This document shows, piece after piece, positions 1 to 63,400 of a stretch of DNA of 64,000 nt. The DNA comes from Azolla caroliniana (Eukaryota > Plantae > Polypodiophyta), in assembly GCA_043228905.1 (NCBI GenBank), contig JBHGNT010000007.1, forward strand, positions 5,580,001 through 5,644,000. The letters are read 5' to 3'. Within the stretch, counting starts at the first letter, position 1, and every line of letters starts with the position of its first letter. The notes below the pieces were generated by a model that saw only the letters and a list, made by a program, of their open reading frames with translations, was not told the origin of the DNA and did not search any database. Made by a program: the position numbers and the translations under genes.

Positions 1-1209
1 ACCTCTCCAAACGATCCTTTGCGCAAGGATTTGTGGACACCTCTGGGGTTTCAAGTACACACTACTGGGGGTGACATCTCGTATAAGCATAAAATGGCGT
101 AACTTTCGTGGATGCATGGATAGAGTTGTTATAGGCAAATTCGGCAAAGTGGAGAATATCTGCCTAGTCATCCTGATGATAGCTGAGAAAGCACCGTAGA
201 TACTGCTCCAGCGTTTGATTGGTTCGTTCGGCTTGGCCGTCAGTTTGTGGGTGGTAGCCGGAGGAGAGGTTACAAGTGACCTTGAGCATGTTAAAAAGGT
301 GCTTCCAGAATTTTGACACGAACTGGGGTCCACGGTCGCTGATGATACTATCGGGAAGTCCATGATGCCGACATACTTCACGCATGACAATTTCGGCAGT
401 GTCTTCACTGGAGATCTCCTTAGTACATGGCAAGAAATGAGCCATCTTCGTATATCGATCGACCAACGTTAGAATCGCATTGAACCCCTTAGAGACTGGA
501 AGATCTGTGATGAAGTCTAGAGCAATGGATTGCCACGGCTTGCTTGGAATTGGTAATGGTTCTAATAAACCATATGGATGATGCCTTGGCATTTTCGCTA
601 TGCAGCATGTATCACAAGTCCGAACAAAATCCTCGACAAATTGTCGCATACAGGGCCACCAGAATGATCATTGTACTAAATGTAGTGTTTTAGTACTACC
701 AAAATGCCCAGCTGTATATATGTCATGACAGTTTTGTACTACTTGAAGGCGGCAAGAACCATTAGGAACATACAAAAGTTCTTTAAATAAGAGTAATCCA
801 TCATGGTATTTGAATTGCCGATAGTCCGTACCTGGTGGTTGCAACTGTGAACACGACGCTCGAGAGGGATCAATTTGTGCTAGTATAGCTTGGGCGAACG
901 CATCTGTCTTCAAGTCTTCGCGTATGGTATCGATAACGCAGGAATCCATGGGCATGTCAAAGATCTTTGTTGCTTGTAGTCGTGCCGGTCCCAAGATGAC
1001 TTGTTTTTGGTTATCGAAAGCTGGCTCGCCGGGACGGGGTGCTAGGTACGAACGTCGTGATAATGCATTGGCCTTCCCTTGGTGCTTCCCCGGACGATAT
1101 GTGATTTTGAAGTCGAAACGCGCGAGGAAGTGGGCCCACCGAGCTTGACGTCGATTCAACACACGAGCATCCTGAAAGTAGGCAAGGTTCTTGTGGTCAC
1201 TAAATACGG
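1..1209 (-). pseudogene. pol: Element A pol fragment (RNase H end, integrase HHCC and core)
   Basis: ORFs 164-649 and 668-1231 nearly match pol of element C (CDTCC, IISDRGPQF, HPQTDGQAER); premature stops. Confidence 0.92.
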
Positions 1210-1981
1210 TGTCGTAGTGTATTTTGTACACTACGTGAAAAACTTATAAAGTACCAATTTAATAAATATGAATAAATAGTAGAAAATATTAAAATTTATA
1301 TAACATACATAGGGCAAGATTCGAACCTTGCACCTCCATGTTACACTAGCATTACACTAGCATTTCATTCATATCAAAAAACATAGATGTCCCACGTAGA
1401 AAGGTAAGTTCACGTAGGATAAACTTTAGTTAAAAGAAAAACGCATGCTAAAAGAAAAAGTTACGCATGCACATCTAGCGTGCATGAACACTATAGTTGA
1501 TAAAAAACGCACAAGTTAGAAAAAGCATGATCACTTTAGATAAAGCATATAGTCTATCTATAGGAAAAGCATGGAGTCTATAGTTAGAGAAAAAAAGAAG
1601 AAGCATGGATTCCTAAGACTCCCTCATCACTACATAAGGATGGGGAGCACAATGTAATAGGTGTGTGAAATATTTGGAAATTGGATATATTTCCGAAAAC
1701 ACCAACCGATTAATATAATTGTGGGATTCACGAAAATAATATAATCTATACTTGTGGGATTCACAAGTTTCGTATATCTTTCTTTCAATCTAAATACATA
1801 TTCTTATCTAAATATTGATTAATTGAATACAATACACTTGTGGGATTCACGAAATTTCTATCTCTCTTTCTAATAATCCATTCATTACTAGCCTCATCTC
1901 ATATTCTTCTTTCTCCTAGTCCAAAACCTCAGTGGTTCCCACCCGACTCACACAAACGATCCGGAGCCGAACGGCACAACA
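1210..1981 (+). repeat. B LTR1
   Basis: TG...CA, followed by PBS; 3' part matches LTR2/LTR3; three GTGGGATTCAC motifs. Confidence 0.9.
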
Positions 1982-1985
1982 CATT

Positions 1986-2003
1986 TGGTGAACCCGACGT
2001 GAA
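1986..2003 (+). other. Primer-binding site complementary to tRNA-Trp 3' end
   Basis: TGGTGAACCCGACGTGAA is the reverse complement of the plant tRNA-Trp(CCA) 3' end; same 18-mer at 4922, 13435, 18457, 20447 and 58057. Confidence 0.85.
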
Positions 2004-2019
2004 GACGGGTGGCAAGGGG

Positions 2020-4130
2020 ATGGAGAATCAACAAGAGGCGATGAACATGATGATGATGATGGTTGAGCAGATGCAACAAGAACAACGCGCGATGACGGAG
2101 ATGAAGGCGGCAGTAGAGCGGCTTGTGCGACGAAATGGGGAATTCAACGGAAATGATGTGTCACGCTATCTACGTGACTACAAAGGGGAGATGATGCGAT
2201 GTGGGATACCGGAAGGATTGCAAGTGATATCCTTCAGTCGGGTAGCCACGGATGAGTTACAAGAAAGAATCTACAAGATACGGCAACAAAATCCAACATG
2301 GGGGTCCTTTGAAGAAGCTTTACGAGAGGCATATGACTACGAGAGATCGAAGGGACGAGATCGACGCAAGTTTGACGAATGGGTGGCATCGGAGAAGACC
2401 CACCGAAGTGCAACACAAGCATTCCTAGAGTTCGAGCATCGTCTTGCTTGACTCTCGGAGCGGGAACAACGATTGGTGGGGGAGGATAAAGTCCTAATGT
2501 TCGTAAAATCGATCGATCGAAAAGAAAGGATGGACATCGGGATCGAACTCGAAATGATGACGGTACGAATGGTCTTACCGAAGATTGGGCCGAAGTCCAA
2601 AGGGTATGCCGGAGACATGATGAGAGGAAGATGAGAATCTTGTCAACGACATGGCCGATGAAGGATGGTCGATTGAAGACAAACGATGGACCCGATATGA
2701 AGGCCGAAATACAACATGACGGTGCGACGGAAGAGGGTGTAAAACAAGCTACCCTCTTGTCTTGCGAAAGAACAACGACAAAGGATAAGGCCGATAACCC
2801 AAGTGTAGAAGAAGATTTCAGAATACAAGTGTCCGAAACATCGGGTGAAAAAGGGGTAAGCATAATTGATGCAGTGAAAGAGAGCAAGGAGGACTTGATT
2901 GAGGAGGTCGCCACGAAAGATGACATCAAATCGAAGGTGGCCATGGACGAATCAATGGCGGATGGCCATATCGAGACTTCCCCACCACTGATTCCAGAGA
3001 CTCCGGCGGTTGCGTTCGAAAGGCAACGTGAGACCGAAGAGACGGAAGGTGGTGGAGAGAAAACAAAGGTCGAAGCCGATTCATATGACGGAGAGATAAC
3101 CGAAAAGGTCAATATGCGTGAAATGACGGAGAATGATAATACCGAAGATTCCTGCCCACTAATCCTAGAGACTTCGGCGGTTGTGTCTGAGAAGCAACGT
3201 GAGACCAGAGAGACGGGAGGTGGCGGCAAGAAAGGTAAAATCGGAAGCCAGTTCTGATGGAAGATGATCCGGAATGAATTCCGATCCGAAAGAAAGCTGA
3301 CTCGGAAAGGGGTCGACTCGATCAAAACGGATCAATTGAGTCCGATTTGGCCGAACGCGAATACGGATGGAAGACGACCTAGCCGAAAGTTGATCGGACG
3401 AGACCAATCCGGAAAGAAGCTAATCCGACTTAGTCGGAGGTTGAACCGGTCGAGGCCAATAAAAACGAGGAAAAGAAAGTCAATCGAAACCGAAACCGAT
3501 AGATCGAAACCGACCTGGAAGGGGGCCGAATCGGTAAAAACCGATCAACCGAGTCCGATTCGGCCGAATACGAATCCAATCAGGAGCCGATCCAACCGAA
3601 AGCCGATCGGACGAGACCGATCTGGAAAAAAGTCAAGGTTGATGAAGAGGCCAGGAAAAGACACTACCACGGATTACAAGGGCCAAGCGGATTTGAAGGG
3701 TATTATTAACGATGAGATCTCAACAAAGAAGAAAGGCTCTAACGGGAAGAACGTAAACACTAATGTGAGATTCTATGACGAGAGAGAACAAAGAATATCG
3801 TGGATCGGATGGTGACAATGGTTCGGGTGGAAAGATTGGATGTGCTCAAAATGGAGAGACAAAGCTGACATAGCAAGAGAAACGGAGGGTACTACAAGTA
3901 AAGAAGAATTACGAGGGCTGGTAATTGGAGACTGGATAGAGCCTGCAACCGAACAAAATTGGAAACCGGGCGGAGTCGACAACCAAAAACCGGAGACCGA
4001 ATGGGGCCGGCAACCAAAAATGATCGGCGACGAAACCAACCATGCGGAGAATGGACGGACGAAACTAACAATCACCGACAACTTCGGCACATACCGGAGG
4101 ATGTGCGGGTTCGGAGGGGCTCGTTTGTAG
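2020..4130 (+). pseudogene. gag: B unit 1 gag-like ORF with acidic then basic low-complexity tail (stops and frameshifts)
   Basis: EFNGNDVSRYL...WGSFEEAL...KVLMFVKSID aligns by eye with Gag of E; interrupted at 2451, ~2555, 3257 and 3815. Confidence 0.75.
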
Positions 4131-4917
4131 TGTATTTCGTACACTACGTGAAAAAGTAAAAATAATTTAACCGATTTAATTACATATAAATAAATAAAAT
4201 AAGAATATCAAAATATTTATCACATGCATAGGGCAGGATTCGAAGCCTATACCTCCACATAGCCAAACCTCAACTTTACCATTATGCTACCTTATCTTTA
4301 GTATTTTATAAATAGATTTAATAACTATAAGTTCTTTATTTGCGCCTACCTTTATTAAAAGGTAAATCATGTATTTTTAGAGTGCGTGAATATTTTATAG
4401 AAAAACGCAAGCAACTAAAAAGTGACTCATGCACATCTAGCGTGCATGAGCACTATATTTAGCAAATAAAAGCAAGGATTAGAAAAGCATCACATGCACA
4501 TTTAGTGTGCATGAACATATTAGAAAAAAAAAAAAAACATGTAGCTATGCTTAGTCTCTCCCATCACTACATAAGGATGGGGAGCACAATGTAATAGGTG
4601 TGTGAAATATTTGGAAATTGGATATATTTCCGAAAACACCAACCGATTAATATAATCGTGGGATTCACGAAAATAATATAATCTATACTTGTGGGATTCA
4701 CAAGTTTCTTATATCTTTCTTTCAATCTAAATACATATTCTTATCTAAATATTGATTAATTGAATACAATACACTCGTGGGATTCACAAAATTTCTATCT
4801 CTCTTTCTAATAATCTATTCATTACTAGCCTCATCTCATATTCTTCTTTCTCCTAGTCCAAAACCTCAGTGGTTCCCACCCGACTCACGCAACGATCCGG
4901 AGCCGAAAGGCACGACA
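4124..4917 (+). repeat. B LTR2 (internal, degenerate 5' terminus)
   Basis: Near-identical to LTR3; ends CACGACA then PBS; start reads TTTGTAG instead of TGTCGTAG. Confidence 0.88.
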
Positions 4918-5553
4918 CAGTTGGTGAACCCGACGTGAAGACGGGTGGCAAGGAGATGGAGAATCAACAAGAGGCGATGAACATGATGATGATGATGGTT
5001 GAGCGGATGCAACAAGAACAACGCGCGATGACGGAGATGAAGGCGGCAGTAGAGCGGCTTGTGCGACGAAATGGGGAATTCAACGGAAATGATGTGTCAC
5101 GCTATCTACGTGACTACAAAGGGGAGATGATGCGATGTGGGATACCGGAAGGATTGCAAGTGATATCCTTCAGTCGGGTAGCCACGGATGAGTTACAAGA
5201 AAGAATCTACAAGATACGGCAACAAAATCCAACATGGGGGTCCTTTGAAGAAGCTTTACGAGAGGCATATGACTACGAGAGATCGAAGGGACGAGATCGA
5301 TGCGAGTTTGATGAATGGGTGGCATCGGAGAAGACCCACCGAAGTGCAACACAAGCATTCCTAGAGTTCGAGCATCGTCTTGCTTGACTCTCGGAGCGGG
5401 AACAACGATTGGTGGGAGAGGATAAAGTCCTAATGTTCGTAAAATCGATCGATCGAAAAGAAAGGATGGACATCGGGATCGAACTCGAAGACGATGAAGG
5501 TACGAATGGTCTTACCGAAGATTGGGCCGAAGTCCAAAGGGTATGCCGGAGAC

Positions 5554-5686
5554 TGTCAGGAACTCTATTAAGGCAGAGAAGGAATTGGTACTAAAAGAAG
5601 GATTAGTACTATTGTTGGGGAATAGTACTAAGACAGAGAAGGATTAGTACTATGAGAGGTATCGAACTTTGAGAGAAGGAATGAGT

Positions 5687-5728
<42 letters not shown>

Positions 5729-6018
5729 TGATGCGAAAGATATATGTATTATATGACGGAAGATATACAACAGTAGTTAGAAGGCTTAAGACTGGCGTTG
5801 AACCGATTTGGTTCGAACTAATGCCTTGCGCCTCCTTTTATAGTGTCTTCAGGAATACTCCTGAAGTTTCTAGAATGTTCCAGAGAAATCTGGAATATAC
5901 ATCAATTTCCCAATAAAACCTAAATGAAAATAATATCCTTCAAATTACAATTCATATCCTAATGGTAAAGTCTCGACCCGTGTAACAAAAGGTTATGGGT
6001 TCGAGTCTAGTTATGACA
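5554..6018 (-). repeat. C 3' LTR
   Basis: TGTCA...TGACA; copy of 10852-11310. Confidence 0.96.
5847..5896 (-). promoter_or_regulatory. Heat-shock-element array upstream of the LTR TATA box
   Basis: Ten trimers in exact 5-bp phase TTC-GAA-cTC-GAA-TTC-GAA-TTC-GAg-aTC-GAA; TATAAAA on minus strand at ~5836-5842. Confidence 0.75.
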
Positions 6019-9000
6019 CTATCCCCCCTTTAAAACGACGAGTTTCACGAGTCGTTTTGGATTGAGGACCCGGTTTCTCGGGATATCGTCGATGGAAGTC
6101 TTCTAGAAGAGCACGAGCATTGGTCACATTCTCGATCGGTTCCCAAGTACGCTCGCTGGGACTATATCCTAGCCAATCGACTAGATAGTAGAGCTTGTTG
6201 CGAACAATCTTGGAATCGAGGATGGCAGCGACCTCATACTCAGGTCCATCTTCGAGCTCGATAGGAGGTGGAGGTTGTATAGTACGTCCTGGGATAGTGC
6301 TCTCGTGATAGGGTTCGAGGAGAGAACTATGAAACACCGGATGTATCCGAAGTTGCGGAGGTAGCTCGAGACGAAAAGCGACATCATTAATCTTCCCGAT
6401 AATACGGAAAGGACCTAATCGCCGATAATCCAACTTCTCACATGGGCGAGTAGTCTTGATGTGTCGTCGTAGCAGCCACACCCGATCTCCAATGTTAAAA
6501 CTGGATGGAAGTCGATGACGATCTGCGTAGTCCTTGTGTGATTGTTGAGCTTGCTGGAGTTGAGTAGATAAATCCGCTTGTATCTTGCGTAACCGCTCCA
6601 AACGATCCTCCGCGCAAGGATTTGTGGACACTTCTGGGGTTTCAAGGACACACCACCGGGGATGATATCCCGTATAAGCGTAGAATGGCGTGACTTTAGT
6701 TGATGCGTGGATAGCGTTATTATAGGCAAATTCGGCGAACTGAAGAATATCTGCCCAGTCATTCTGATGATAGTTGAGAAAGCACCGCAGATACTGCTCC
6801 AGTGTTTGATTTGTTCGTTCGGCTTGACCGTCGGTTTGTGGGTGGTAGCCGGAGGAGAGGTTACAAGTGACCTTCAGCATTTTAAAAAGGTGCTTCCAGA
6901 ATTTTGACACAAACTGGGGTCCACGATCGCTGATGATATTATCAGGGAGTCCATGATGCCGACATACTTCCCGCATGACAATTTCGGCGGTGTCTTCACT
7001 AGATATTTCTTTAGTACATGGTAAGAAATGAGCCATCTTCGTATATCGATCCACCACTGTGAGAATCGCACTGAATCCCTTAGAGACTGGAAGATCTGTA
7101 ATGAAGTCAAGAGCAATGGATTGCCATGGCTTGCTTGGAATTGGTAATGGTTCTAATAAACCATATGGATGATGTCTTGGCATTTTCGCTCTGCAGCATG
7201 TATCGCAAGTCCGAACAAAATCTTCGACAAATTGTCGCATACGGGGCCACCAGAATGATCGTTGTACTAAATCTAATGTTTTAGTACTACCAAAATGTCC
7301 TGCTGTATATGTGTCATGGCAGTTTTGTACTACTCGAAGGCGGCAAGAACCATTAGGAACATACAAAAGTTCTTTAAAGAAGAGTAATCCATCACAGTAT
7401 TTGAATTGCCGATAATCCGTACCTGGTGATTGTGATTGTGAACATGACGCTCGAGAGGGGTCAATTTGTGCTAGTATAGCTTGGGCGAAAGCGTCAGTCT
7501 TCAAGTCCTCACGTATAGTATTGGTAATGTCGGAATCCACGGGCATGTCAAAGACCTGTGCTGCTTGCAGTCGTGCTGGACCCAAGATTACTTGCTTCTG
7601 GTTATCGAAAGCTGGCTCACCGGGACGTGGTGTTAGATACGAACGCCGTGATAATGCATCTGCCTTCCCTTGGTGTTTCCCCGGACGATATGTAATTTTG
7701 AAGTCGAAGCGTGTGAGGAAGTGGGCCCACCGAGCTTGACGTCGATTCAGTACACGAGCATCTTGAAAGTGGGCAAGGTTCTTGTGGTCACTGAATACAG
7801 TGACCTGATGAGGAGATCCCTCCAGGAAATGCCTCCATTGCATAAAAGAATCAACTATTGCTAATAGCTCTTTATCATGAATTTCGTAGTTGATTTCGGC
7901 GGCGTCAAACTTACGGGAGTGGAAAGCCACAGGATGTAGCTTCTCGTCGTTACCCTGTTGTGACAGAATGCTCCCCAATGCGAAATCCGATGCGTCAGCT
8001 TCGATAATGAATGGTTTTTCCGGATCCACATGACCTAAAATTGGAGCTGATGTAAACGCCTTCTTAAGACTCTCGAAAGCCATGTCCGTCTCTTTAGACC
8101 AAATGAATGATTGTCCCTTTCTGGTGAGCTGTGTGAGAGGCAGCACAATTTTTGAGTAATTTTGTATGAACTTCCGGTAGAAATTTGCAAAGCCTAGGAA
8201 GCATTGCACATCCCGCACCGAACGCGGAGTGTGCCATTCTATCACCGTTTTGACCTTGGCTGGGTCCATAGATATGCCTTCTGAGGAGATGACATAGCCG
8301 AGAAACTCCACTTGGTTGCACCCGAAACTACATTTCTCTAACTTTGCATACAGACCATGTTCTCGAAGTCGTTTTAGTACTAATAGTACATGAGAATCAT
8401 GTTCTTCTTGGGTCTTTGAATAAACCAGTAGATCATCCAAATAGATGATCAAAAAATCATCCAAGAGATCTCGAAATATATCATTCGCCATGTGCTGGAA
8501 GACTGCCGGCGCATTAGTAAGTCCAAACGGCATGACCGTATACTCGAAGTGCCCATATCTGGTGCGAAACGCGGTCTTCCATTCATCTCCTGGTCGGATC
8601 CGTACGAGGTTATAGGCTCCTCGTAAGTCGATCTTCGTGAAGAACCTGGCACCGTTGATCCGTTCTAAAAGACTTGAGATAAGGGGAAGAGCATACCTAT
8701 TTCTTACTGTGACCTTATTCAAGCCACGGTAATCTACAACGAGTCGAAGCGAGCCATCTTTTTTCTTGACGAAGAAAATGGGTGCGCCGGCTGGAGATTT
8801 CGAATGCCGAATGAAACCGTTCTCCAAATTCTCCTCTATATAGGCTCGAAGGACTTCTAGCTCGGTTGGTGACAAATTGTAGATCGGCCCCCATGGCGGC
8901 TCTTTTCCCGGTTGTAAGTCGATGGCGCAGTCGTACGGCCGATGATGAGGAAGTGTGTTGGCTTGTACTTTATCGAACACATCAGCATACTGACGATACT

Positions 9001-9568
9001 TCTCGGGAAGTTGAACGGTGGACTCCTCTTTGGTGGTGCTGGAGGGTTGTACTGATATTGCAAAGAGAAACATTTCCTCCTTGCGCCCTTCCTCACGCAA
9101 CTGACGTAGCGAAATGGTTGCAACCTTCTGGGTAGATCCTTGGGTTTGTCGCAACCGGATTTCCCTTGTCCTCCAATCTATGTCTGGGTCATGTAACTCG
9201 AACCATGGTAATCCTAAAACTATGGGATGTTCTGGAATACTAATAATATTAAATGATACTACACATGTTAAGTTATTTAGGACAATATTAACGGGTTCCG
9301 ACTCTTCTATGATATTACCAGAAGCAATGGGACGACCATCAATGACTACTACTGAGGCTGGACATGGGAGCTTTCTGAGAGATATCTGATGAGCTCGGGC
9401 AAAATTCCTATCCATGAAGCAAGAATTAGCTCCGGAATCTAGAAGGGCTAAGGTATGTACTGGAGGGGTACTTTTAGTACTAACTGCTACTTGGGCTACG
9501 AACACATCACTAACTTGCTTAGAGGGAATGGAACCACTAATGGGCTGCACAGATCTAGGGCTGTCCAA
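6011..9568 (-). CDS. pol: Pol polyprotein PR-RT-RH-INT-chromodomain
   Basis: 1185 aa; LLDSGA, YLDD, EADASD, integrase core, GPF and chromodomain EYEVAAILD...YLVDWLGY...TWEP; stop lies inside the 3' LTR. Confidence 0.97.
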   Translation of the reverse strand: MDSPRSVQPISGSIPSKQVSDVFVAQVAVSTKSTPPVHTLALLDSGANSCFMDRNFARAHQISLRKLPCPASVVVIDGRPIASGNIIEESEPVNIVLNNLTCVVSFNIISIPEHPIVLGLPWFELHDPDIDWRTREIRLRQTQGSTQKVATISLRQLREEGRKEEMFLFAISVQPSSTTKEESTVQLPEKYRQYADVFDKVQANTLPHHRPYDCAIDLQPGKEPPWGPIYNLSPTELEVLRAYIEENLENGFIRHSKSPAGAPIFFVKKKDGSLRLVVDYRGLNKVTVRNRYALPLISSLLERINGARFFTKIDLRGAYNLVRIRPGDEWKTAFRTRYGHFEYTVMPFGLTNAPAVFQHMANDIFRDLLDDFLIIYLDDLLVYSKTQEEHDSHVLLVLKRLREHGLYAKLEKCSFGCNQVEFLGYVISSEGISMDPAKVKTVIEWHTPRSVRDVQCFLGFANFYRKFIQNYSKIVLPLTQLTRKGQSFIWSKETDMAFESLKKAFTSAPILGHVDPEKPFIIEADASDFALGSILSQQGNDEKLHPVAFHSRKFDAAEINYEIHDKELLAIVDSFMQWRHFLEGSPHQVTVFSDHKNLAHFQDARVLNRRQARWAHFLTRFDFKITYRPGKHQGKADALSRRSYLTPRPGEPAFDNQKQVILGPARLQAAQVFDMPVDSDITNTIREDLKTDAFAQAILAQIDPSRASCSQSQSPGTDYRQFKYCDGLLFFKELLYVPNGSCRLRVVQNCHDTYTAGHFGSTKTLDLVQRSFWWPRMRQFVEDFVRTCDTCCRAKMPRHHPYGLLEPLPIPSKPWQSIALDFITDLPVSKGFSAILTVVDRYTKMAHFLPCTKEISSEDTAEIVMREVCRHHGLPDNIISDRGPQFVSKFWKHLFKMLKVTCNLSSGYHPQTDGQAERTNQTLEQYLRCFLNYHQNDWADILQFAEFAYNNAIHASTKVTPFYAYTGYHPRWCVLETPEVSTNPCAEDRLERLRKIQADLSTQLQQAQQSHKDYADRHRLPSSFNIGDRVWLLRRHIKTTRPCEKLDYRRLGPFRIIGKINDVAFRLELPPQLRIHPVFHSSLLEPYHESTIPGRTIQPPPPIELEDGPEYEVAAILDSKIVRNKLYYLVDWLGYSPSERTWEPIENVTNARALLEDFHRRYPEKPGPQSKTTRETRRFKGGIVS

Positions 9569-9594
9569 CCAAACGGCTCCTATTTTGGCTGGAC

Positions 9595-10764
9595 TTAGTC
9601 GTTTAACTCTTCTTCTAATTGGCTAAGGACATCAAATTTGTTTGCGAGATTCGGACTATTAGTACTATTAGGACTATTATGACTATGAGGATTATCAGAG
9701 ATTCCTACTGAAATAGACTCGGGTTTAGTATAGTCAGAACTAACAATGACTTGGTTTACCTGCCTTCTTGGTCTATGGGGACAGTTTATCGCGATATGCC
9801 CTGGTCCACCGCAATAAAGGCATAATCGGTTTGTTCGGCGTCGTTGCTTTTCCTCCTCCGATAGCGGCCCACGACGACGTGTAGTGTCAATTTCCATTGG
9901 AGTTGGAGTACTTACTGGAGGCGCATTATGTGACTCCCTTTGAAAAGGTTTCGCTACCACTGAGGCATAGGTAGGCTCGGATCTTGCCCTCGGCATCTGA
10001 AATTGTCGTTCCGAACGTCGCTCGAAGAGGCGGTTGTCACATCTGACCGCTCGACTGATTGCTTCTGTTAATGATTTTGGCTCTTCAGGGAAAGTCAAGA
10101 GTAAATCCTTGACATCGTTGCGTAGACCATAGCGGAACTGCTCCATCAATGCTTGATCATCCCAGGGGATATCGGCGGCGAGTAGGCGGAAATCTGCAGC
10201 ATATGCGGAGGCTGGACGGTCACCTTGGCGTAATCGCCGGATTTTGTTGATTGTAGTCCTTATGCTGTCAGTATCTCCAAAACATGCTTTAAACTCACTT
10301 ATGAATTCTTCAAAATTATTTAGTACTGGAGATTCCTTTTCTAGTAGCGGAGCGAACCATGCTAATGCTGAGCCATTTAACAACGTGCCTACTAAACCCA
10401 CTCGTGATGCATCGGTGGGATATCGGGACGGATGCATTTGAATAACTAACCGTACCTGGTTAAGAAACCCTCTAAACTGCGATCGCGTTCCATCGAACTT
10501 CGTGGGAAGGCCAATCTTGGGTTCTTTATGAATCCCTTGTGCTCCGTGCCCTTGTTGTTGCATTGCTACGATGGTTGCTTCGAGTTGTTGCACGCGTAAC
10601 GCAAGTTCCCCATGCTGTTGTTGCGTTTGCTGCTTTTCTAAGGAAATTTGCTGAAGATCCCCCAACAAGCGTTGATTTTCTTGTTCCAAAGCATGAAACT
10701 TCTCTTTCAAGCATTGAAATTCCGAGAAAACGGATTGATACTCTTCAGCGCTAACGGTGGCCAT
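9595..10764 (-). CDS. gag: Gag (coiled coil, capsid, CCHC knuckle)
   Basis: 389 aa; PTKFDG, LRQG, PTPMEID, CLYCGGPGHIAINC. Confidence 0.96.
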   Translation of the reverse strand: MATVSAEEYQSVFSEFQCLKEKFHALEQENQRLLGDLQQISLEKQQTQQQHGELALRVQQLEATIVAMQQQGHGAQGIHKEPKIGLPTKFDGTRSQFRGFLNQVRLVIQMHPSRYPTDASRVGLVGTLLNGSALAWFAPLLEKESPVLNNFEEFISEFKACFGDTDSIRTTINKIRRLRQGDRPASAYAADFRLLAADIPWDDQALMEQFRYGLRNDVKDLLLTFPEEPKSLTEAISRAVRCDNRLFERRSERQFQMPRARSEPTYASVVAKPFQRESHNAPPVSTPTPMEIDTTRRRGPLSEEEKQRRRTNRLCLYCGGPGHIAINCPHRPRRQVNQVIVSSDYTKPESISVGISDNPHSHNSPNSTNSPNLANKFDVLSQLEEELND

Positions 10765-10851
10765 GGGATGAAGGAAAAGGGAAATAAGAGACTAGTAGGA
10801 AAGGAGGGAGACAGAAGGAAGAGGGAGACTAGTAGTCAAATCGGTTCAAAC

Positions 10852-10984
10852 TGTCAGGAACTCTATTAAGGCAGAGAAGGAATTGGTACTAAAAGAAGGA
10901 TTAGTACTATTGTTGGGGAATAGTACTAAGACAGAGAAGGATTAGTACTATGAGAGGTATCGAACTTTGAGAGAAGGAATGAGT

Positions 10985-11020
<36 letters not shown>

Positions 11021-11310
11021 TGATGCGAAAGATATATGTATTATATGACGGAAGATATACAACAGTAGTTAGAAGGCTTAAGACTGGCGTTGAACCGATT
11101 TGGTTCGAACTAATGCCTTGCGCCTCCTTTTATAGTGTCTTCAGGAATACTCCTGAAGTTTCTAGAATGTTCCAGAGAAATCTGGAATATACATCAATTT
11201 CCCAATAAAACCTAAATGAAAATAATATCCTTCAAATTACAATTCATATCCTAATGGTAAAGTCTCGACCCGTGTAACAAAAGGTTATGGGTTCGAGTCT
11301 AGTTATGACA
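10852..11310 (-). repeat. C 5' LTR
   Basis: Copy of 5554-6018, adjacent to the PBS-position sequence 10837-10849. Confidence 0.96.
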
Positions 11311-12754
11311 GAGACATGATGAGAGGAAGATGAGAATCTTGTCAACGACATGGCCGATGAAGGATGGTCGATTGAAGACAAATGATGGAGCCGATATGAA
11401 GGCCGAAATACAACATGATGGTGCGACGGAAGAGGGTGTCAAACAAGCTACCCTATTGTCTTGCGAAAGAACAATGACGAAGGATAAGGCCGATAACCCA
11501 AGTGTAGAAGAAGATTTCAGAATACAAGTGTCCGAAACATCGGGTGAAAAAGGGGTAAGCATAATTGATGCAGTGAAAGAGAGCAAGGAGGACTTGATTG
11601 AGGAGGTCACCACGAAAGATGACATCGAATCGAAGGTGGCTATGGACGAATCAACGACGGATGGCCATATCGAGACTTCCCCACCACTGATTCTAGAGAC
11701 TCCGGCGGTTGCGTTCGAAAGGCAACGTGAGACCGAAGAGACGGAAGGTGGCGGAGAGAAATCAAAGGTTGAAGCTGATGCGTATGACGGAGAGATAGCC
11801 GAGAATATGGCTATGGGTGAAACAACGGAGGATGATAATACCGAGGATTCCTACCCACTAATTCTAGAGACTTCGGCGGTTGTGTCCGAGAACCAACGTG
11901 AGACCGGAGAGACGGGAGGTGGCAGCAAGAAAGGTAAAGTCGGAAGCCGGTTCGGATGGAAGGTGATCCGGACGGGATTCCGATCCGAAAGAAAGCCGAA
12001 CCGGGTAAAAGAGGATTCGACCGAAAGTCGACCCAAAAGAAAGCCGAACCGAAAGGAAGAAAATTCAGCCGAAAGACGACACAAACGAAAGCCGAACCGG
12101 GCAAATGAGGATTCAGCCGAAAGACGACCCGAAAGAAAGCCAACCCGAAAAGGGGTCGACTCGGTCAAAACCGATCGACCGAGTCTGACTTGGCCGAACG
12201 CGAATATGGATGGAAGCAGACCTAGCCGAAAGCCAATCGGACGAGACGGATCCGGAAAGAAGCTAATCCGACTCAATCGGAGGTTGGACCGGTCGAGGCT
12301 GGTGAAAACGAGGAAAAGAAAGCCAACCGAAACCGAAACCGATAGATCGAAACCGGGCCGGAAGGAGACCGACTCAATCGAAACCGAACAACCGATTCCG
12401 ATTCGGCCGAATACGAATCCGATCAGAAGCTGATCAAACCGAAAGTCGATCGGACGAGAGCGATCCGGAAAAAAGTCAAGGTTGATGAAGACAAGAAAGA
12501 GGCCAGTAAAAGACACTACCACGAATGACAAGGGCCAAGAATATGACGAGAGAGAACAAAGAATATGGTGGATCGGATGGCGACAATGGTTCGGGTGGAA
12601 AGAATTGGTCTACTCAAAATGGAGAGACAAAGTTGACATAGCGGGACAAATGGAGGATGAAGGGGAGACAACGAGCATCGGCAACTTCGGCACATACCGG
12701 AGGATGTGCGGGTTCGGAGGGGGCGAGTGTCGTAGTGTATTTCGTACACTACGT

Positions 12755-15700
12755 TGTCGTGAAGATTTTCGTCCATAGGCGGAAAACCGAGCGAAGCAAG
12801 CAAACCCGCGATGTGCAACGTTGCACATCAACATGTTGTATTTCTATTTATCGATAGTGATAAGTATGGTGCTAGAAATGCACCTTAGGATTTGTAAAGT
12901 GTAAAGGTGATGTGCTTTTGCGCGCACATCCACGTGAGAGAGAGAGAGATAGGTACGTGGTAGTTCGTGTAGAGGTGGGAGTTAAGACCCATCCTTCCCA
13001 CCTCCCCTAAAATCAAGGGAAATCTCCCCATTGATTGAAAGGGGATATTTTGTAGCACCTTTATGTAACGGTCTTCCCTCCTTGTGCTATAAAGGGAGAG
13101 GAAGAGCACCATTGTGGAGGTTGCCTATTTTGAGTGCGAAAGGTATACCACATAGGACGAGCGTTAGGTTTAGGGTTTCTTTTCTTCTTCGTCGGATTAG
13201 GGTTTCGGGTTTATCATAGTCGTTTGGTGCGGCCTACGCGGCCGCCATTTTGTAATCGGTTTTCGGTTCTAATATATCTTGTTGAGCATTTGGCCTCCAT
13301 CTTCCTCTTGTTCATTCTTTCTCTTCTTGTGCTAAGCTCCATTCCGAAGTCCTATTCCTTCTCCCCTTTTCCTTAGTCCAAGACCCCCGTGGTTCCGCCC
13401 TTCTCCACGCACGCGCGTAACAACGCGACATCTTTGGTGAACCCGACGTGAAGGGCGGCAAGGGAGAAAGAGATGGAAGAAGGCTTCGACTTCGAGGAGA
13501 TGATGACAAAGATCTTGATGGACGCCGGACGGAAGAGGGCGAGGCGAGAGTTCTTTCGTCGAGCGGCGGCCGCATCAAAGTACGAGGAGGTCAAGGAGCT
13601 CCAAGAAGCTCACGAATCGTGGGAGTCCTTTGAAGGGGCTCTAATGGAGGCATACGGGTGCGCGGAATCGGAGGTAAGAGGTCGGCGAGAGTTCGATCGG
13701 TGGGTGGCGTCGGCGAGGCGCCATCGGAGTGCAATGGAGGCATTCCGAGAGTTCGAGCGTCGTTTCTCTCAACTCTCGGAGTGGGAACGAAGATCGGTGG
13801 GGGCGGACAAAGTCCTCCTATTTTTGAAGACGGTCCATCATGAGGAGAGGATGGACATCATGTTCGAGCTTCAAGACGATTATGGAGCGCATGGTCTCAC
13901 CGAGGAGCTGCCCGAAGTGGAATGGGTGTGTCGGCAACATGAGGCGAGGCGGTCGGCCACAACACGGCCCGCGAGCGGGGGAGAAGAGAGAGCGACGACC
14001 GACTACGCCATGCCGCCGGACGAGAGCTCATCGCGAACCGGTTTGGAGGGGCCCGACCTACAAGCGCTAATACGGGAGGCGTGCGGGCTCGTAATGGCGA
14101 AAATCGAAGCCGAAGAATGGCTTATTGCGGGGTCGGGCCTGAGCGGATCGGAGGACGCGGAGGAAGGAGCTTCCTCACACATGGAGGACGGGGCCTATGC
14201 GGAGGCCGAAAGAGAATGGTACATCGGTACCACGGGAGAGGGTGCGGAGCGAGCCGCCCTCTCGACATGGGGGAAAAGAACGACCGAGGATGAGGTCGGG
14301 GACGGTGAGGCGGCGATCGCCGATTCGAGTGGACATGGCGGATTCGGGACATGGTGGCCCGAATCATCGAGTACGGAGGAGACAAGCGGCGGTACCGCAA
14401 CCTTCCACGCACCGGTTCAAGAGACCCCGGCGGCCGGCCCGAGTGCCCACGTGAGACCGAGGGAAAAGAACGGTGGCGGCGACAAGGCGGGCAACCGAGA
14501 CAACGGTAAGGAGACCGCGGAAGAGGCGGCGGCAAGCATAACCGATGCTTGCATATACGGAGGCGGGGTAGCCACGGACAACGACGTCCGAGCGGAGGTG
14601 GCTACGGACATTACATCGACGAGCGGCGGTCCCGCGCCCTTACACGCGTCATTCCTAGAGATCACGGCGGCCGGCCCGAGTGCCCGCGTAAGACCTATGG
14701 TGAAAGGCGGTGGCGGTGGCAAGGCGGGCGACCACGACGTCGACACGAGAGAAGGTGCGGAGCAAGCGACCGTCTCATCTCGGGGAAAAAGAACGGCCAT
14801 GGACGAGGCCGATATCTACGGAGCGATGGACGCCACTTCGAGAGTGGGCGGAAGTTTCGGGACGCGGTTGCCCGAAACGTTCTACGAGGATTTCGCGAGC
14901 ATACTCGAGGCTTGCGAAATGGAGGAGGAAGACGAAACGAGCGATGGTGTCGCGACCTTCCACACACTGGCCCTAGAGGCTTCGGCGGTCGGCCCGAGTG
15001 CCGGCACGAGACCTAGAACGACGGGCGGTGGCGGCGGCAAGGCGGGCCACCGAAACGACGACGACATGGGAGAGGGTGCGGAGCGAGCAACCCTCTCGTC
15101 TTGCGGCGAATGGACGGCCAAGGATGAGGCCGGTGACTACGAAGCGGAGAGCGCCACTTCGAAAGTGGGCGGAAGATTCGGGGCACGGCGGCCCAAAACA
15201 TCGAGCGGAGAGGAGGCGAGCGGTGGTGCCGCGACCTTCCACACACCGGCCCTAGAGGCTTCGGCGGTCGGCCCGAGAGCCGGCGAGAGGCCTGGAGTGA
15301 CGGACGGTGGCGGCGGCGAGGCGGGCAAACGAGATGACGCGGAGAACGGCGAAGAAGAGGTGGTGGCAAGCATACTAGAGGCTTGCGGAATCGGAGATGG
15401 GGGAGCCACGAATAACGACGTCCGAACGAAAGCGGCTACGGAGACAACAAACGGCGGTGCCGGGTCCTTACCCACACCAATCCTAGAGGCTCCAATGGCC
15501 GGCCCGAGTGCCGGCATGAGGCTTAGCGCGACGGGAGGTGACGGCGGCAAGGCGGGCAACGGAAACGAGAAGGAAGATTGGAGCGGACGGAGGCAAGACC
15601 CCTTGACACCGGGGCCGGAGACTACGACGGTTGCACTCGGAAGCCAACATAAGACCGTAGAGAAGGGCGGTGGCCGTGAGGAGGCGTGGCCCGGAGAGAG

Positions 15701-18757: not shown

Positions 18758-18761
18758 ACGG

Positions 18762-29625: not shown

Positions 29626-29668
29626 GTAACCGCGACTCCCTCGGTTCCGAAAACCGAGAGGATTTTTA

Positions 29669-44935: not shown

Positions 44936-45062
44936 TTAAGAGGTAATTAATTGGAGATGGAATCAGCTCTGATTAAAATGACGATGAAGGGTTTAATGTG
45001 ACTTAAAATGTGATTAATTTAAATGTTAATATGACCGTTTTTTTGGCCGAATGTGATTAACA

Positions 45063-55600: not shown

Positions 55601-57425
55601 ACCCTGGGATGAAATAGTGTATCCCAAAAATTCGACTTGTTTGCAATCAAAACTGCATTTCTCAAGTTTGGCATAAAGACCATACTTCCTTAGGCGTTCA
55701 AGTACTTGCCGCACATGTATATCATGCTTCCCCTGTGTTTTAGAGTAAATCAATAGATCATCTAGGTAGATGATTAGAAAAATATCCAAGAAATCCTGGA
55801 AGATGTCATTTGCCATATGTTGGAATACTACAGGTGCATTTGTGAGCCCGAAAGGCATGACTGTATACTCGAAATGACCATACCGAGTACGAAATGTTGT
55901 TTTCCACTCATCTCCCGGCCGAATTCGAACAAGATTATATGCACCCCTTAGATCAATTTTGGTAAAATGCTTTGCCCCACCAATGCGTTCTAAGAGATTG
56001 GAGATTAAAGGTAAAGCATACCTATTCCTTATGGTGACTTTATTTAAGCCTCGATAGTCCACGACCAAACGAAGGGAGCCGTCCTTTTTCTTCACAAAAA
56101 AGATAGGAGCACCAGCGAGAGACTTTGAATGTCGAATAAACCCATGTGCAAGATTTTCCTCGATGTATTCTCGAAGAACCTCAAGCTCAGTGGGTGATAA
56201 ATTGTAAATCGGACCCCACGGTGGCTCTTTTCCTGGTTGGAGATCAATAGGACAGTCGTACGGCCGATGCTTTGGAAGAACACTAGCTTTGACTTTGTCA
56301 AAAACATCAGCATAGTCTTGATATTTTTTGGGAATTTGGATGTCTGAATTCCCTTCAGTGACACTAGAGGGTGTCACTGATACTGCAAATAAGAAAAGGT
56401 CCTCCTTGCCTCCCACTTGGCACAATTGTTGCAATGTGATGGAGGAAATTTGATGAGAAGGATATGGTGCATCGGTAGAACTATATACTTTAGGAGGATA
56501 ATCCCGAGTTCGATCCTTGACAGATATTTTCTGCTAAAGGGCACCTAATTTCTCACTTCCTCCAATCGATTCTAGGGTTATGTCGCTCGAACCATGGCAA
56601 ACCGAGGACAATTGGATTACGGATTATGTTAAAGGAAACTACACATCCTAAATCACCCAAGAGTATGTGTATTGGCTCAGACTCTTCAAATATCTTCCCG
56701 GAAGCTATGGGGCGTCCATCAATCACTACTACGGAAACGGGACAAGGAAGTGTATGCAAGGATATTTGGTGTTTTTGGGCAAAATTTCTATCCATGAAAC
56801 AAGAATTGGCTCCAGTATCTAAGAGGGCTTGGACTTGAAGTTGACAACTGGGTGTCCTAACTTGTACTAGGGCTGAGAAGACTCTACTAACATGCTTGGA
56901 AGAAATGGAACCCACACTAGGTTGTACATATCTAGGGTTGTCCAACCAAATGGCTCCTATTTTGGCCGGACTTATTCGTTTGACTCCTCTTCTAATTGGC
57001 TTAGAACTTCAAATTTATTGGACAAGGGTGAATTATTCATAATATTAGATTCACTAACTGCTTCTAAAATGTTGGACTCATTTTTATTGTCATAGTGAAT
57101 TTGATTTACCTGACGTCTCAGCCTACGGGAGCAATGAATGGCTATATGTCCTGGACCTCCGCAATATAAGCATAGATGGTTTGCTCGACGGCATTGCTTC
57201 TCTTCGTCTGACAACGATCCTCGTCGTTGAGTCATATCGATCTCCATGGGTGTAGGACTATCCATTGGGACTGGACTACGTGTTTGCCTTAGAGTTGGAG
57301 CAGGGCTATACATTTGCCTTGGGGACAATTGCGTCGTTACTGATGCATAAGTTGGTGTGAATCTTGATCTTGTTATTTGTTGTTGTCGCTCGCATCGACG
57401 CTCAAAAAGGCGATTATCACACCGT
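52674..57425 (-). mobile_element. Element I: second Tcn1-like family (3' LTR 52674-53117, decayed pol, gag 3' half), interrupted by H
   Basis: TGTCA...TGACA LTR; LLDTGA, YLDD, integrase, chromodomain EYEVVAILD; gag PTPMEID, CLYCGGPGH. Confidence 0.9.
52890..52970 (-). promoter_or_regulatory. Heat-shock-element array in the I LTR
   Basis: TTCtaGAAtgTTCtaGAAtgTTC and TTCtaGAAcaTTCtaGAA; TATAAATA on minus strand at 52863-52870. Confidence 0.75.
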
Positions 57426-60400
57426 TGTCGTGAAGAAAACCGTCCACAAGCGGAATCGGTGCACTGGAGCGTAGGAACCGGCTCTTCATACACGTACGCC
57501 TTATGTTGTACATAGAAGATCCTAGGTAGGTAGATTCGGTAGGTAGGAAGTTAATGGGAAACGGCTCCTTCCTTGCCTATAAAAGGAGGGAGACGAGGAG
57601 GGGAGAGTGGATCGCGCAATCAGAGAGGACAAAGTGTTGTCGGGTTGTCGGCCGAAGGCTTCTCTCTCTTCCAAACTCCATAGCTTCTTTCTGTGCAGGT
57701 TTCGGGAGGCTCGCGCTACTCTGAGGAATGCCCGAGTGCTTCCGGCAGCACCTCCAACCTACTCCTTTCTTTCTGTGCGTTTACGAACAAGCATCAGCAT
57801 CTGTTCGCCGACCTGTTCGGTTGTAACCGACTTCGTGCTTCTTGTTGTTTGTCTCTGTTAATATATACATACATACCTTTGTGTCTCTCTGTGTTGGTTT
57901 TCCCGCTCGCGTCTTCGTGTCGAAGGGTCGTGTCCCTGTGGATCTACGCTCGCACCTAGTGGGTCTCTTCCCTTCTCCTTTCTCTCTTGTTGTTCAGTAC
58001 AAGACCCCCGAGGTCCCGCCTCATTCCACGCATCCGCGAGGAATACCTCGACATCTTGGTGAACCCGACGTGAAGGAGGCGGCAGAAGAGCAGAAGATGA
58101 GGGGGTCGGATCTTGCAGAGGCCATGACTTTGGCCGTGGATTGGATATTGAGCACACGCGAGGGCACCGGCGCCCTCGACAGAGCCATTGAGGCGGTTGT
58201 CGGTACGATCGGCCGGTTCAGCGGAAAGGATGCTACGAAGTATTTGGCGTCCTACGGGGCAGAAATGCTGATGCGGGACATTCCAGAAGAGAGGCGTCTT
58301 GCCGGGTTCCCTCGAGTGGCGATGCCGAGCATCCATGCGGAGGTGCTCGAGGTACGGGCGGAGAGCCGTACCTGGGAGGAGTTCGAAGGCTGACTCCTAG
58401 AGAAATACGGGTTGGACGACGCGCTCCGGCTTTCGAAACGGGACTTCATGGAATGGGTGGAGTCCCCCGGCAAGGGAAGAAACGCGTCGGCACTCCTTCG
58501 GGAGTTTGAGGAATGCTTTGCGCGCCTTTCGGCGCTTGACCGAACCGTTCTGGATACGAGCCGGGTCCTACTGTTCGTCAAGTCGGTGGATGAGCGGGAC
58601 CGGGATCAAGTCGGCTCCTTGCTAGAAACCGAAGACGGGCTGACGACCGACTAGACTGCGGTTAAGAGAGTCTGTGGCCATTTCGACAAACGGCGAGAAT
58701 GGGCTGACAACGGGGCGACCGGAGCGGGCTCTGTCACAGCCAGGATGCTTGAACCGGCACCACAAGGGCGAAGGGCAGAGACCCGGGAGTGGCTCGAAAC
58801 CAGTTCGGCTTCGACCGGCATGGTCAATGACTCGTCCGAAGGAGCAGCGCTGGAGGAGTTGACGCGGGCGATAAAGTATCTCCAGATCGCCCAGACTCGA
58901 AGGGAAGGCGGCGAACCGGCACGTGACCGACGGCCGGCAGCAGGGAACAGGTGCATGTGGTGCGACGAGGTCGGCCACATTCAGAAGGACTGCGGCGATT
59001 TCACAGAGGCGTTGAGGAACCGGGTGGTGTACCTGTGGGAAGGCTGGGTGCATGCCGGCGATACCAGAAGGGCCCTAAACCGAAACGACGGGCGGGGAGG
59101 TATGAAGAGACTGATGGAAGAGGCAGCGGCCCGACACGTGGAGGCCATCCACTACTCGGCGTCGGCCGGTATTCGGGTCGGGGGCAGCGAGGCCCGAAAG
59201 GAGAGCAAAGACGGATTCTGGTCGGCAATGCTGGAAGGCCTCGCCGGCGCACGGCTGAGGGAAGATGAAGCGGACCGCGTTGAGAAACGGGTCCGGGAAA
59301 TAACCGGGTGGAGCGACCCGGTCGAGGAGAAGACGGGCTTCGTAGAAGCCGCCTGCCGGAACTACGAGGCTCTGGTGGAAGACAAACGAGTGGGGAAAGC
59401 CGGAGCGGCCGAGCCCTCACAACGATACGAGACCCGATTCGGGCAACGACGGAACGATGCCGGTGGGTCCAGCGCGCAAGATAACCCCAGGAAGGGCGGA
59501 TACTGACTGGGGACGGAAATAGAAAGGACCACGGACCTACGAAAGCTCCTAGAAGAGCGGATCCTCGACAGCAAAGTGGAGTTGTCATTGCGGGAGGTGC
59601 TAGGGATCGCTAAGAAGGAGTTCCACGACTCCATTGTAGACTTGGTGAAGCGGAAGAGGCTGTCGACGGAGACGGAATCGGAGAGACCGGTGGAGGTGCG
59701 GACGACGCACATCGACGACTCGGCGCTGGCAGATGAGTGGGCGGAGAGCCACTATTCGAGGCCACACTGGGCCCGAGCGACCACGGAGACCCCGGTAAAG
59801 ATCGGAGATGTTCAGGAACCGGTGGTGGCATTGGTGGACCACGGTTCGGAAATAAACCTGATGTCCATGGACTTCTATAAGAAGGGAAAGTGGCCGATCA
59901 ACACCAAGCACGGGTGGAAGATACGGGCGGCGACGCGCGCCACCGAGGAACTGCACGGGGCCTGCCCGAACGTGCGAGTCAAGATCGGCGACGTCGAGAT
60001 TGACCAGCACTTCTTCATACAGGAGACGTCCTCGCACCCGGTCATATTAGGGGAACCATACATCACGGCAGCGCGGATGGAGACCAAGGTGCTAGACAAC
60101 AGTTCGGCCTACGCGAGGGTCAAAAGCCAGGACGGGCGCCATTCGGTCCAATTTCTGATGGTGCGACCAAACCACGAGCGGAACCGCGAATACCTCTGTG
60201 GCGAGAACCGGGAGGATTTTTAGAGAGGGCTGCCAAGGCGTGGGGCCGAGACAGTCCGGACACTCGGGAAAGACCCCACAGCTGTACGATAGAACCGAAA
60301 CCGAAATAAACCCTGTACGATAAGTAAAAAAAATTTCTTCTCCGACAACGGAGGGTGTATGTTAGTCGGCATCGTTGGCCGAGAAAAGGCAAGGGCGGAA

Positions 60401-63400
60401 GTGCGACTTCGAGTGTGCGGAGTTCTCGGCCCGGACGAGGAAATCAGCGGAGCCGTGGAGGCGGTCTCCTTCGACGACACCTTGGGAATGCTGAGGAAGG
60501 TAGCCGGAGAAGACCTTAACGAAGACCGGACGATACCGGTATGTTCCGAAGAGATGTACGAAGTCATCGCGGACTTCAGTCAGGGGCTCGGGTCGGATCG
60601 GACGGCCCGAGTTAGCACGAAGTACAAGACTGTGGACCGGAAGGTAAGGCCAGTCGCGGCACCCTTACCGGAGGGCAGCGAGTCCCGAATCAGAGGGGTT
60701 GCGTCGGACCCCAGTTTACGAGATCCGGTCTGCATAGGACACACCTTCACCGACGGGACACTCCATGAGCTCAAAATCGGTGGGGGCGGGTTCCTACTGC
60801 CGGCGGAGGAAGACCAGTTTCGGAGAATCCTCGGAAGGCACGGTAAAGCCTTCGCATTCTCACCGGGAGAGATCGGGTGCGTAGACCCGACAATCGTGGA
60901 GCCGATGGTGATATTCACGGTACCGCATGTGCCGTGGAATCTCAAGCCGATTCCAGTACCGAGAGCTCACATCCCGAAGTTGATGGAGCTATTGAGGCAG
61001 AAAGTCGATATGGGCATTCTCGAACCGTCAAGTGCCCCATACTCGAACCGATGGTTTACCGTACCAAAGAAAAACGGAACATTGCGCTTCATTCAAGACC
61101 TGCAGCCGGTCAATAGAGTGACCATTCGGAACGCAGGAATCGGACCGACCATAGACGAGTTCGCGGAGGCCTTCACCGGAAGGTCGATCTATTCGGTCGG
61201 TGATCTGTACTCGGGGTACGACCAGTTCCAGCTAGCCGTGGAGAGCAGAGACATTATGACGATGCGAACTCCCCTCGGCCTAGTGCGAATGTGTACCCTG
61301 CCACAAGGAGGGACCAACTCGGTGGCCCACATGGTGAATGCAATGAACAAGGTACTGAGGGATTGCATCCCGGACATCACCATGCCATTTTTAGACGACA
61401 TCCCGATCAAGGGGTGCCCGGTGGAAGAGAAGGACGCAACACTCGGACCGGACGGATGCCGGCGATTCGTGGCAACACACATCGACGACTGCGAGAAGGT
61501 GCTACAAAGGCTAGAGGATGCGAGGCTCACCTTCTCCGGTGTCGTGACGTGGCTCGCCTAGAAGCGTAGCGTTGCGCACACAAAGGATAACGTGAAAGTG
61601 AGGAAGGAATCACTGGGATTATGGACGGAAGAGACGAAAGAGTAGAGATGGAGTGAATAGAGATCAATAAGATATGACAAAATAGGATTTTTAAGGAATA
61701 TAAGATAAGACAAGATAAGATATAAAATAATATATGAGAAAGTGTATGAAATTTATAATCATTTTCATGAAAGAGTTACAAAATGATTGTACACGTCGTT
61801 GATCCTCTGAACTTTGTCTTGCAAGGTAATCGCTCTTCTCTTTCTTGATCGTAGACCACTACAATCTTCACTTCAATATTTTGATGAAGATAAGGCTCGA
61901 ACCGCCTCCCTCTTGTTGAGAGTTGACCACCACGACCGCCAAGCTAGAGCTCCACCTTTTTCTTGACTTCTTCCTTTCTTTCTCTATTTTATGGTATCTC
62001 TTATGTAATATATATTTGATTGATATCTCGTACACATCCCCCTTTGATCTTCTCTTTCACCATTTAAATAGGTGCCCCCATGCATATGATGCATTGGAGG
62101 GTACAAGTCATGCATGTGATGCATGATAAACATCTCGCTCATTTGACCTTTTATGTATGAAACAATATATGCAATAAGAATAAACATGAAAATATAATCT
62201 TAAAGACAAAGGGCCTAGCCTAATGGTAGGTGTGTCAACTTTGGTGTATGAGGTTGTGGGTTCGCGTCTCAAAATGCTATTGAATACAACATACAACTTT
62301 ATTTAATCCTTTATGTAATATAAAGTATATATAAAGTATGCTTTATTTTATGTATATTACTAGTATAGAGTAAATGGTAAGATTTGAGAGTCATAGGGTG
62401 GGGTTATTGGTTCAAGTCCTCTCTTGTTCGTGTAATATAATATATTTATCTATATATATATATTATTTTTCTTTACATATTTATAATATTATCATATGTG
62501 TTGTTAATATTATCTTTATATATAAAACATTATCAAATGTTATTTTAGTTACGTATTTATCTTATTGTAGACTTTTAATGTGAAGCTTTCGTACTTCACG
62601 ACACCGGGGAGAAATCGGCCTTCGGGCAATCAGAAATCCTGGTGGTCGGACACCTATGTGGACCATATGGCCGGAAGCCGTCTTCGGCAAAGGTAGAAGC
62701 CATCTCCGCGATGAAGACCGACTGTAGCTCGGTTACGGAAGTTCAGAGGTTCTTGGGGGCGTGCGCATTCTACCACATATGGATCCCGCATTACGCCCAC
62801 GTTGCGGAGCCGCTATACGGGTTGCTGAAGAAAGGGCGAAAATTCGAGTGGCGAGACGAGCACACGGAGTCGGTCCGGAAGCTGAAGGAAGCTCTTGTGG
62901 CAGCACCGGCGCTCCGGAAGGCTGTCTACGGGAAGGGTACCCCGGTATACATAACAGTGGATACGAGTCCGATCGGGATCGGATGGGTCGTCAACCAAGA
63001 AGACGAGGACGGCATTCGGTTCCCGATCCGATTCGGCGCGAAGGTCCTCAGTGAGCGACAGCGAGGGTACGCCCAGGTTAAACGCGAACTCTGGGGTATC
63101 GTTTCGGCAGTGAAGGCCGACAAAGACTACCTGATCGGGACAGAAGTGAGTATCGAGGCGGATTGCCTGCCAATTCTCGGCATGGTGTCCGGATGCGCGA
63201 CACCGGACCTGGCGATGCTCAGGTGGATAGCGTACATCAAGTCCCTAGACCCGGAAATACGACACATTTCCGGAAAGGACAACGCCATGGCCGACATGCT
63301 TTCGAGGGCGAGGTTTGATGACGAGGGCGGCATGGTTTCGGAGGACGAAGAAGTCGGCGTGGACTTCTTCGAGGCAGCGTACGTGACGACCGATGGGACG

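What the first reader, a model, noticed from the sequence alone, without database searches (positions are those of the whole stretch)
1206..62607. All five TGTCGT-ended insertions are centred on a CpG (4-bp NCGN target)
Seen: target tetramers are ACGG (B, 1206/18758), ACGT (D, 12751/17682), ACGC (E, 19647; right copy ACAC), CCGT (H, 57422; left side only) and CCGG (K, 61536/62604). The 5-bp targets of other families here (GAGAC, GTAAC, CCACT) contain no CG. Inference: the integrase of this tRNA-Trp-primed lineage selects a symmetric CpG, possibly methylated CpG. That would steer a chromodomain-less Gypsy and its satellites into older transposons. I do not know this as an established property of the lineage; n=5.
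Basis: partly seen in the sequence, partly recalled or inferred. Interest (0 to 1): 0.82.

Follow-up and report, generated by a model that had tools for sequence, protein, structure and literature searches.

The report
Known Phygy retrotransposon CpG target site
Five related jumping genes here all landed on a CG pair, which matches a published habit of the moss retrotransposon lineage Phygy; the choice is likely made by the integrase reading DNA sequence and bendability, and a need for methylated CG remains untested.

Summary
Four insertions show a 4-bp duplication (ACGG, ACGT, ACGC/ACAC, CCGG) and a fifth shows CCGT on its one visible side. It also holds beyond the window: in metagenome contigs 18 of 20 independent left junctions are NCGN and the other two are NTGN, against 4.4% CG in flanks. 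It is not new. Neumann et al. 2019 report Phygy with a 4-bp TSD (100% of 186 elements, NCGN) and tRNA-Trp priming. Element E meets the Phygy features I could test: Trp PBS, no chromodomain, no extra RNase H. Clade placement against labelled Phygy references was not possible, and E is slightly below the published size range. Sites are more exactly VCGB (26 of 27); avoiding T first and A last is a general rule of 4-bp intasomes. Nothing here supports a methyl-CpG reader: no such domain was found and one site lies beside a host PPR gene. But no methylation data were available, so it is not excluded. Small additions: non-autonomous satellites share the target, and the lineage reaches liverworts.

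The parts
1206..1209 (+). Left TSD of B, ACGG
1210..18757 (+). Element B: non-autonomous Phygy-type tandem; LTRs 1210-1981, about 4123-4917 and 12728-18452 (split by D), each followed by a Trp PBS; ends in a 286-bp duplicate of the LTR 3' end; gag N-terminal remnant only
18758..18761 (+). Right TSD of B, ACGG
12751..12754 (+). Left TSD of D, ACGT (inside B LTR3)
12755..17681 (+). Element D: non-autonomous, 676-bp LTRs 100% identical, PBS at 13435, one 1180-aa ORF with Phygy-like gag N-terminus and no Pfam hit
17682..17685 (+). Right TSD of D, ACGT
19647..19650 (+). Left TSD of E, ACGC
19651..33982 (+). Element E: autonomous-type Phygy-like Gypsy, 792-bp LTRs 98.7% identical, 7276 bp without nested F
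20447..20463 (+). tRNA-Trp primer binding site of E (same motif at 1986, 4922, 13435, 18457, 58057); tRNA identity recalled from the plant tRNA-Trp 3' end
20433..22574 (+). E gag-protease ORF (DUF4100 hit)
29630..33119 (+). E pol: RT, RNase H, integrase (H2C2, core); weak SH3-like C-terminal hit in another frame; no chromodomain, no extra RNase H
33983..33986 (+). Right TSD of E, ACAC (CG changed to CA after insertion)
57422..57425 (+). Left target tetramer of H, CCGT (right copy outside window)
57426..64000 (+). Element H: sister of E (gag 88%, pol 89-93% aa), runs off the window
61536..61539 (+). Left TSD of K, CCGG
61540..62603 (-). K: solo LTR of the same lineage in reverse orientation inside H pol
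62604..62607 (+). Right TSD of K, CCGG
5554..11310 (-). Control: chromovirus C, 5-bp TSD GAGAC
22575..29625 (+). Control: chromovirus F, 5-bp TSD GTAAC
35774..41195 (+). Control: copia G, 5-bp TSD CCACT

Best explanation
The five insertions carry 4-bp CG-centred target sites and likely belong to the Phygy Gypsy lineage, whose integrase likely picks the CG by sequence and DNA bending rather than by reading a methyl group. Shown: 4-bp duplications, central CG, T avoided first and A avoided last (VCGB), Trp PBS, integrase without chromodomain. Inferred: a 4-bp staggered cut needs a sharp kink at a central pyrimidine-purine step; symmetric base contacts narrow that step to CG; non-autonomous B and D use the same integrase in trans, and K is the solo LTR of a related element. 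Nesting in older transposons would follow from their CG supply and from survival of harmless insertions.
For: Window TSDs and empty sites. 18 of 20 independent junctions NCGN, G at -2 in 20 of 20; far above an any-YR null, p 2e-13. Published Phygy profile: 4 bp, NCGN, tRNA-Trp 81%, no extra domain. VCGB 26 of 27 versus 40-46% available matches the T/A avoidance and central YR rule for 4-bp retroviral intasomes (PMC4422553 sections 6 and 14). Closest solved relatives are Ty3 and PFV integrases. Precedent for direct reading of a CG-rich site: ZAM integrase binds a CGCGCG oligonucleotide and not its mutant (PMC2527525 passages).
Against: No labelled Phygy sequence was available, so clade membership rests on diagnostic features only. 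E (7276 bp) is below the published 7656-9968 bp range. Methylation of targets before insertion is unknown; transitions between paralogues here are enriched at CG and CHG and at least 8 of 20 flanks are transposon-derived, which fits a methylation role as well. The model (pLDDT 67.5) identifies no base-contacting residue. The ZAM paper also shows the CG site alone is not enough for cleavage.
Confidence: 0.75

Rival explanations
1. The integrase prefers or needs symmetrically methylated CpG, and so finds silent chromatin without a chromodomain.
For: Target is exactly the symmetric CG; all five window sites and at least 8 of 20 metagenome sites lie in or near transposons; 2 of 20 junctions and E's right TSD show TG/CA decay; CG and CHG transitions are raised in window elements.
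Against: No methyl-reader domain in Pfam scans, PDB sequence search or listed fold matches. Flanks are not CpG-depleted as a pool and range 0.16-1.43 o/e. One site is beside a PPR gene. Decay of a TSD can follow insertion. The window is transposons throughout the parts examined, so nesting here is uninformative.
Confidence: 0.12
2. The CG is generic shape readout only: any flexible YR step would do and CG is over-sampled because the region is GC-rich.
For: 4-bp intasomes favour central YR; window CG is 6.0%.
Against: CG is only 15% of YR steps in the flanks yet 18 of 20 sites (p 2e-13); no TA or CA centre among 27 left or single junctions.
Confidence: 0.03
3. The elements are TatI rather than Phygy (also 4-bp TSD and tRNA-Trp).
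For: TatI: 4 bp 100%, tRNA-Trp 75% in 4 elements.
Against: TatI carries aRH in 100%; E and relatives have no second RNase H hit, and RH-to-integrase spacing is 114 aa, like chromoviruses here (107-109).
Confidence: 0.04
4. The pattern is an artefact of misdrawn LTR ends or small numbers.
For: n=5 in the window; H one-sided.
Against: Empty sites fix four boundaries; flank-blind rule gives 18 of 20 and the negative control 46 of 530.
Confidence: 0.01

Closest known systems
Phygy (non-chromovirus Ty3/gypsy, Physcomitrium patens; Neumann et al. 2019, PMC6317226)
   Same: 4-bp NCGN TSD, tRNA-Trp PBS, no chromodomain, no aRH, coding region fills the internal part; nests in Tcn1 chromoviruses (PMC6911290)
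   Different: Described from P. patens; E is 7.3 kb, a little under the range; gag-only satellites and the VCGB refinement are not in the passages I read
TatI (Neumann et al. 2019)
   Same: 4-bp TSD, tRNA-Trp
   Different: Has aRH; no NCGN preference listed
Selgy (Selaginella)
   Same: Non-chromovirus, 4-bp TSD, compact
   Different: tRNA-Ala primer, 4.4-6.7 kb, no NCGN listed
PFV and MLV intasomes
   Same: 4-bp stagger, central YR step, T/A avoided at first/last position
   Different: Weak statistical preference; here the centre is almost always CG
ZAM (Drosophila)
   Same: Gypsy integrase with 4-bp TSD and a CG-rich target bound directly
   Different: [quoted passage not shown]

Membership tests
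Phygy | 4-bp TSD | tested here: met
   B, D, E, K both sides, with empty sites
Phygy | NCGN target preference | tested here: met
   5 of 5 in window; 18 of 20 in loci
Phygy | tRNA-Trp primer binding site | tested here: met
   Same 17-nt motif after six LTRs; tRNA identity recalled, no tRNA gene in window
Phygy | Gypsy order RT-RH-INT without chromodomain | tested here: met
   chromodomain found in C and F but not E
Phygy | No aRH or extra ORF; coding region spans the internal part | tested here: met
   (element E)
Phygy | Size 7656-9968 bp | tested here: inconclusive
   E is 7276 bp without F; range comes from one species
Phygy | RT/RH/INT clade with P. patens Phygy references | not testable with these tools
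   Reference fasta too large to read; no Physcomitrium-named hit among 120+120 listed. Tree groups E with Riccia and metagenome relatives, apart from two chromoviruses, with no Athila/Tat/Selgy rows
TatI | aRH domain | tested here: not met
Selgy | tRNA-Ala PBS | tested here: not met
Chromovirus | Integrase chromodomain | tested here: not met
Methyl-CpG-directed integrase (hypothetical) | Preference for methylated over unmethylated CG | not testable with these tools
   No methylome or genome held; indirect tests neutral

The most novel reading that the evidence does not exclude
Phygy integrase reads methylated CpG directly at its cut site, giving a chromodomain-free route into silent transposon DNA that its gag-only satellites borrow.
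Probability: 0.12. Interest if true: 0.8.

Novelty: already known. Interest (0 to 1): 0.15.

Why it matters
As it stands it confirms a published lineage trait and extends it to satellites and further samples. Phygy integrase is a usefully strict sequence-selective integrase whose mechanism I found no paper on. If it read methylation, it would be a new way for retrotransposons to find heterochromatin, testable in moss met1 mutants.

Tried and rejected
Whole-genome TSD count: no genome held. Logan contigs over 16950-20500 gave no junction-level counts. Over 12700-12800, the shown loose ends before D's LTR start sat at 12752/12751 (9, 7 and 5 contigs; flanks ending CGT), with none shown at 12753-12755, but 36 rows were hidden and longer matches are laid more easily, so I give it little weight. 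The 5-bp control TSDs are weak. Fewer C at the first target position, which a 5mC clash would predict: 14 of 53, p 0.057, not significant and also explained by purine preference. ESM Atlas gave only generic Gypsy clusters without useful taxa. Structure model showed no extra domain. Earlier scan findings: none. Linheiro and Bergman passages had too few ZAM/Tirant sites for a motif. The Cryptococcus paper and the P. patens RLG paper passages held nothing on CG targeting.

Full report
Observation. The window is a nest of LTR retrotransposons. Five insertions have TGTCG...CGACA ends. Their target tetramers are as reported: B ACGG/ACGG, D ACGT/ACGT, E ACGC/ACAC, K CCGG/CCGG, H CCGT on the left only. 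Paralogous empty sites show a single copy of the tetramer for D and E and a one-base variant for B and K, which fixes a 4-bp duplication. Five central CGs at 6.0% CG have a chance of about 8e-7. The three 5-bp control TSDs are real but CG-free by chance 48% of the time.

Anatomy. E and H are autonomous-type sisters: gag-protease with DUF4100, then RT, RNase H, integrase and a weak SH3-like tail, with no chromodomain. D and B are non-autonomous, keeping only a gag N-terminal region. D has identical LTRs. B is a tandem of three LTR units whose first LTR is 89% identical to the others. K is a solo LTR on the minus strand, matched to PBS-linked LTRs in other contigs. Six LTRs are followed by the same 17-nt PBS, which I recall as complementary to plant tRNA-Trp. 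B, E and H sit in chromoviruses, D in B's LTR and K in H's pol. Named relatives of pol are from Riccia (about 64% identity) and one Adiantum fragment; closer ones (up to 83%) are unnamed metagenome proteins. A bryophyte host is therefore inferred, not shown.

Independent test. No genome was held. A rule blind to the flank (TGTCGT[GA] 450-1300 bp upstream of the PBS) gave 38 candidates. Eleven followed a polypurine tract and were set aside as 3' or collapsed LTRs. Of 27 left, 21 had central CG. Of the 20 whose start is shared with another LTR, 18 were NCGN and two were ATGT and ATGG; G stood at -2 in 20 of 20. Flank CG was 4.4% and non-terminal TGTCG matches gave 46 of 530. Of the 7 dropped, three are not LTR starts, one is a true start with ACGG and three are unresolved, two with CG. 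CG is 15% of YR steps in the flanks, so generic YR preference fails (p 2e-13). These loci come from a small set of assemblies of unknown host species; some are very close to the window's elements (L085 98.5% to D's LTR, L015 95% in RT-RH).

Refinement. Adding two further nested junctions and the five window sites, 26 of 27 lack T first and A last (VCGB), against 40-46% of available NCGN sites. I noticed this after looking, but p is about 7e-8 on the loci alone. Serrao et al. 2015 (abstract and sections 6 and 14 read) report the same avoidance and a central YR step for four retroviruses with 4-bp TSDs, ascribed to a clash of the thymine methyl at the cut. It is thus a general intasome rule.

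What is known. Neumann et al. 2019 (passages, section 9 and Additional file 5 read) state that Phygy elements prefer NCGN; the table lists 186 elements, 4 bp 100%, tRNA-Trp 81%, 7.7-10 kb, no extra domain. TatI shares 4 bp and Trp but always has aRH, which E lacks. Jedlicka et al. 2019 (passages) found that among 26 recurring nested pairs Phygy in Tcn1 was commonest, and 4-bp TSDs have GC-rich centres. Phygy is also annotated in a liverwort (passages). Additional files 1 and 3 of Neumann could not be read; they bear on clade placement and on VCGB. My tree lacks labelled references, so membership rests on diagnostic features.

Mechanism. Shown: 4-bp stagger and VCGB. Inferred: a symmetric intasome kinks the target at the central step and contacts restrict it to CG. 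The integrase's nearest solved relatives are Ty3 and PFV; the model is moderate (pLDDT 67.5) and shows zinc-binding, core, long helices and a beta C-terminal domain, nothing more. ZAM integrase binds a CGCGCG oligonucleotide directly (abstract and passages), a precedent for CG reading by an integrase; that Drosophila largely lacks CG methylation is recalled. Aiyer et al. (passages) show a C-terminal loop sets base choice in MLV/PFV.

Methylation. For: transitions between paralogues are raised at CG and CHG (B LTR2 versus LTR3: 6 at 36 CG sites, 5 at 200 CHH sites); three targets show TG/CA; 8 of 20 flanks match transposons. Against or neutral: 11 of 20 flanks matched nothing, one lies about 450 bp from a PPR ORF (35 of 47 flank ORFs scanned), pooled flank CpG is not depleted, and no reader domain appears. 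E's ACGC/ACAC pair shows decay after insertion. Five searches (listings only except where read) found no paper testing methylation dependence of Phygy targeting; the library lacks most subscription journals.

Verdict. Real, statistically strong and already known as the Phygy NCGN preference. The methylated-CpG idea remains open at about 12%. Interest 0.15.

Noticed in passing
window 18453-18757: B ends with LTR3, a complete PBS, then a 286-bp repeat of the LTR 3' end that abuts the TSD; it may be an aberrant plus-strand transfer product.
   Followed up: partly
window 1210-18452: B is a head-to-tail tandem of non-autonomous units sharing LTRs; LTR1 is only 89% identical to LTR2/LTR3 although one TSD flanks the whole.
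   Followed up: partly
window 13452-16994 and L014:7629-10583: D holds an open 1180-aa frame, gag N-terminus plus acidic repetitive sequence without Pfam hit; a relative in L014 lies in tandem with an autonomous copy (possibly an assembly collapse).
   Followed up: partly
window PBS sites and L001-L121: The LTR-to-PBS spacer is mostly 4-5 nt (93 of 124 matches), longer than I recall as usual.
   Followed up: no
window 22400-22500 and homologues: The protease motif reads DHGS rather than the DSG/DTG that I recall as usual.
   Followed up: no
L050:1-1987: Insertion about 450 bp from a long PPR-protein ORF on the other strand; local CpG o/e 0.16.
   Followed up: partly
window 51634-52673: Inverted partial copy of copia G (87% identical to 39682-40738).
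   Followed up: no
window 44717-44966 and 53569-53946: Short tandem arrays with about 32-bp and 130-bp units.
   Followed up: no
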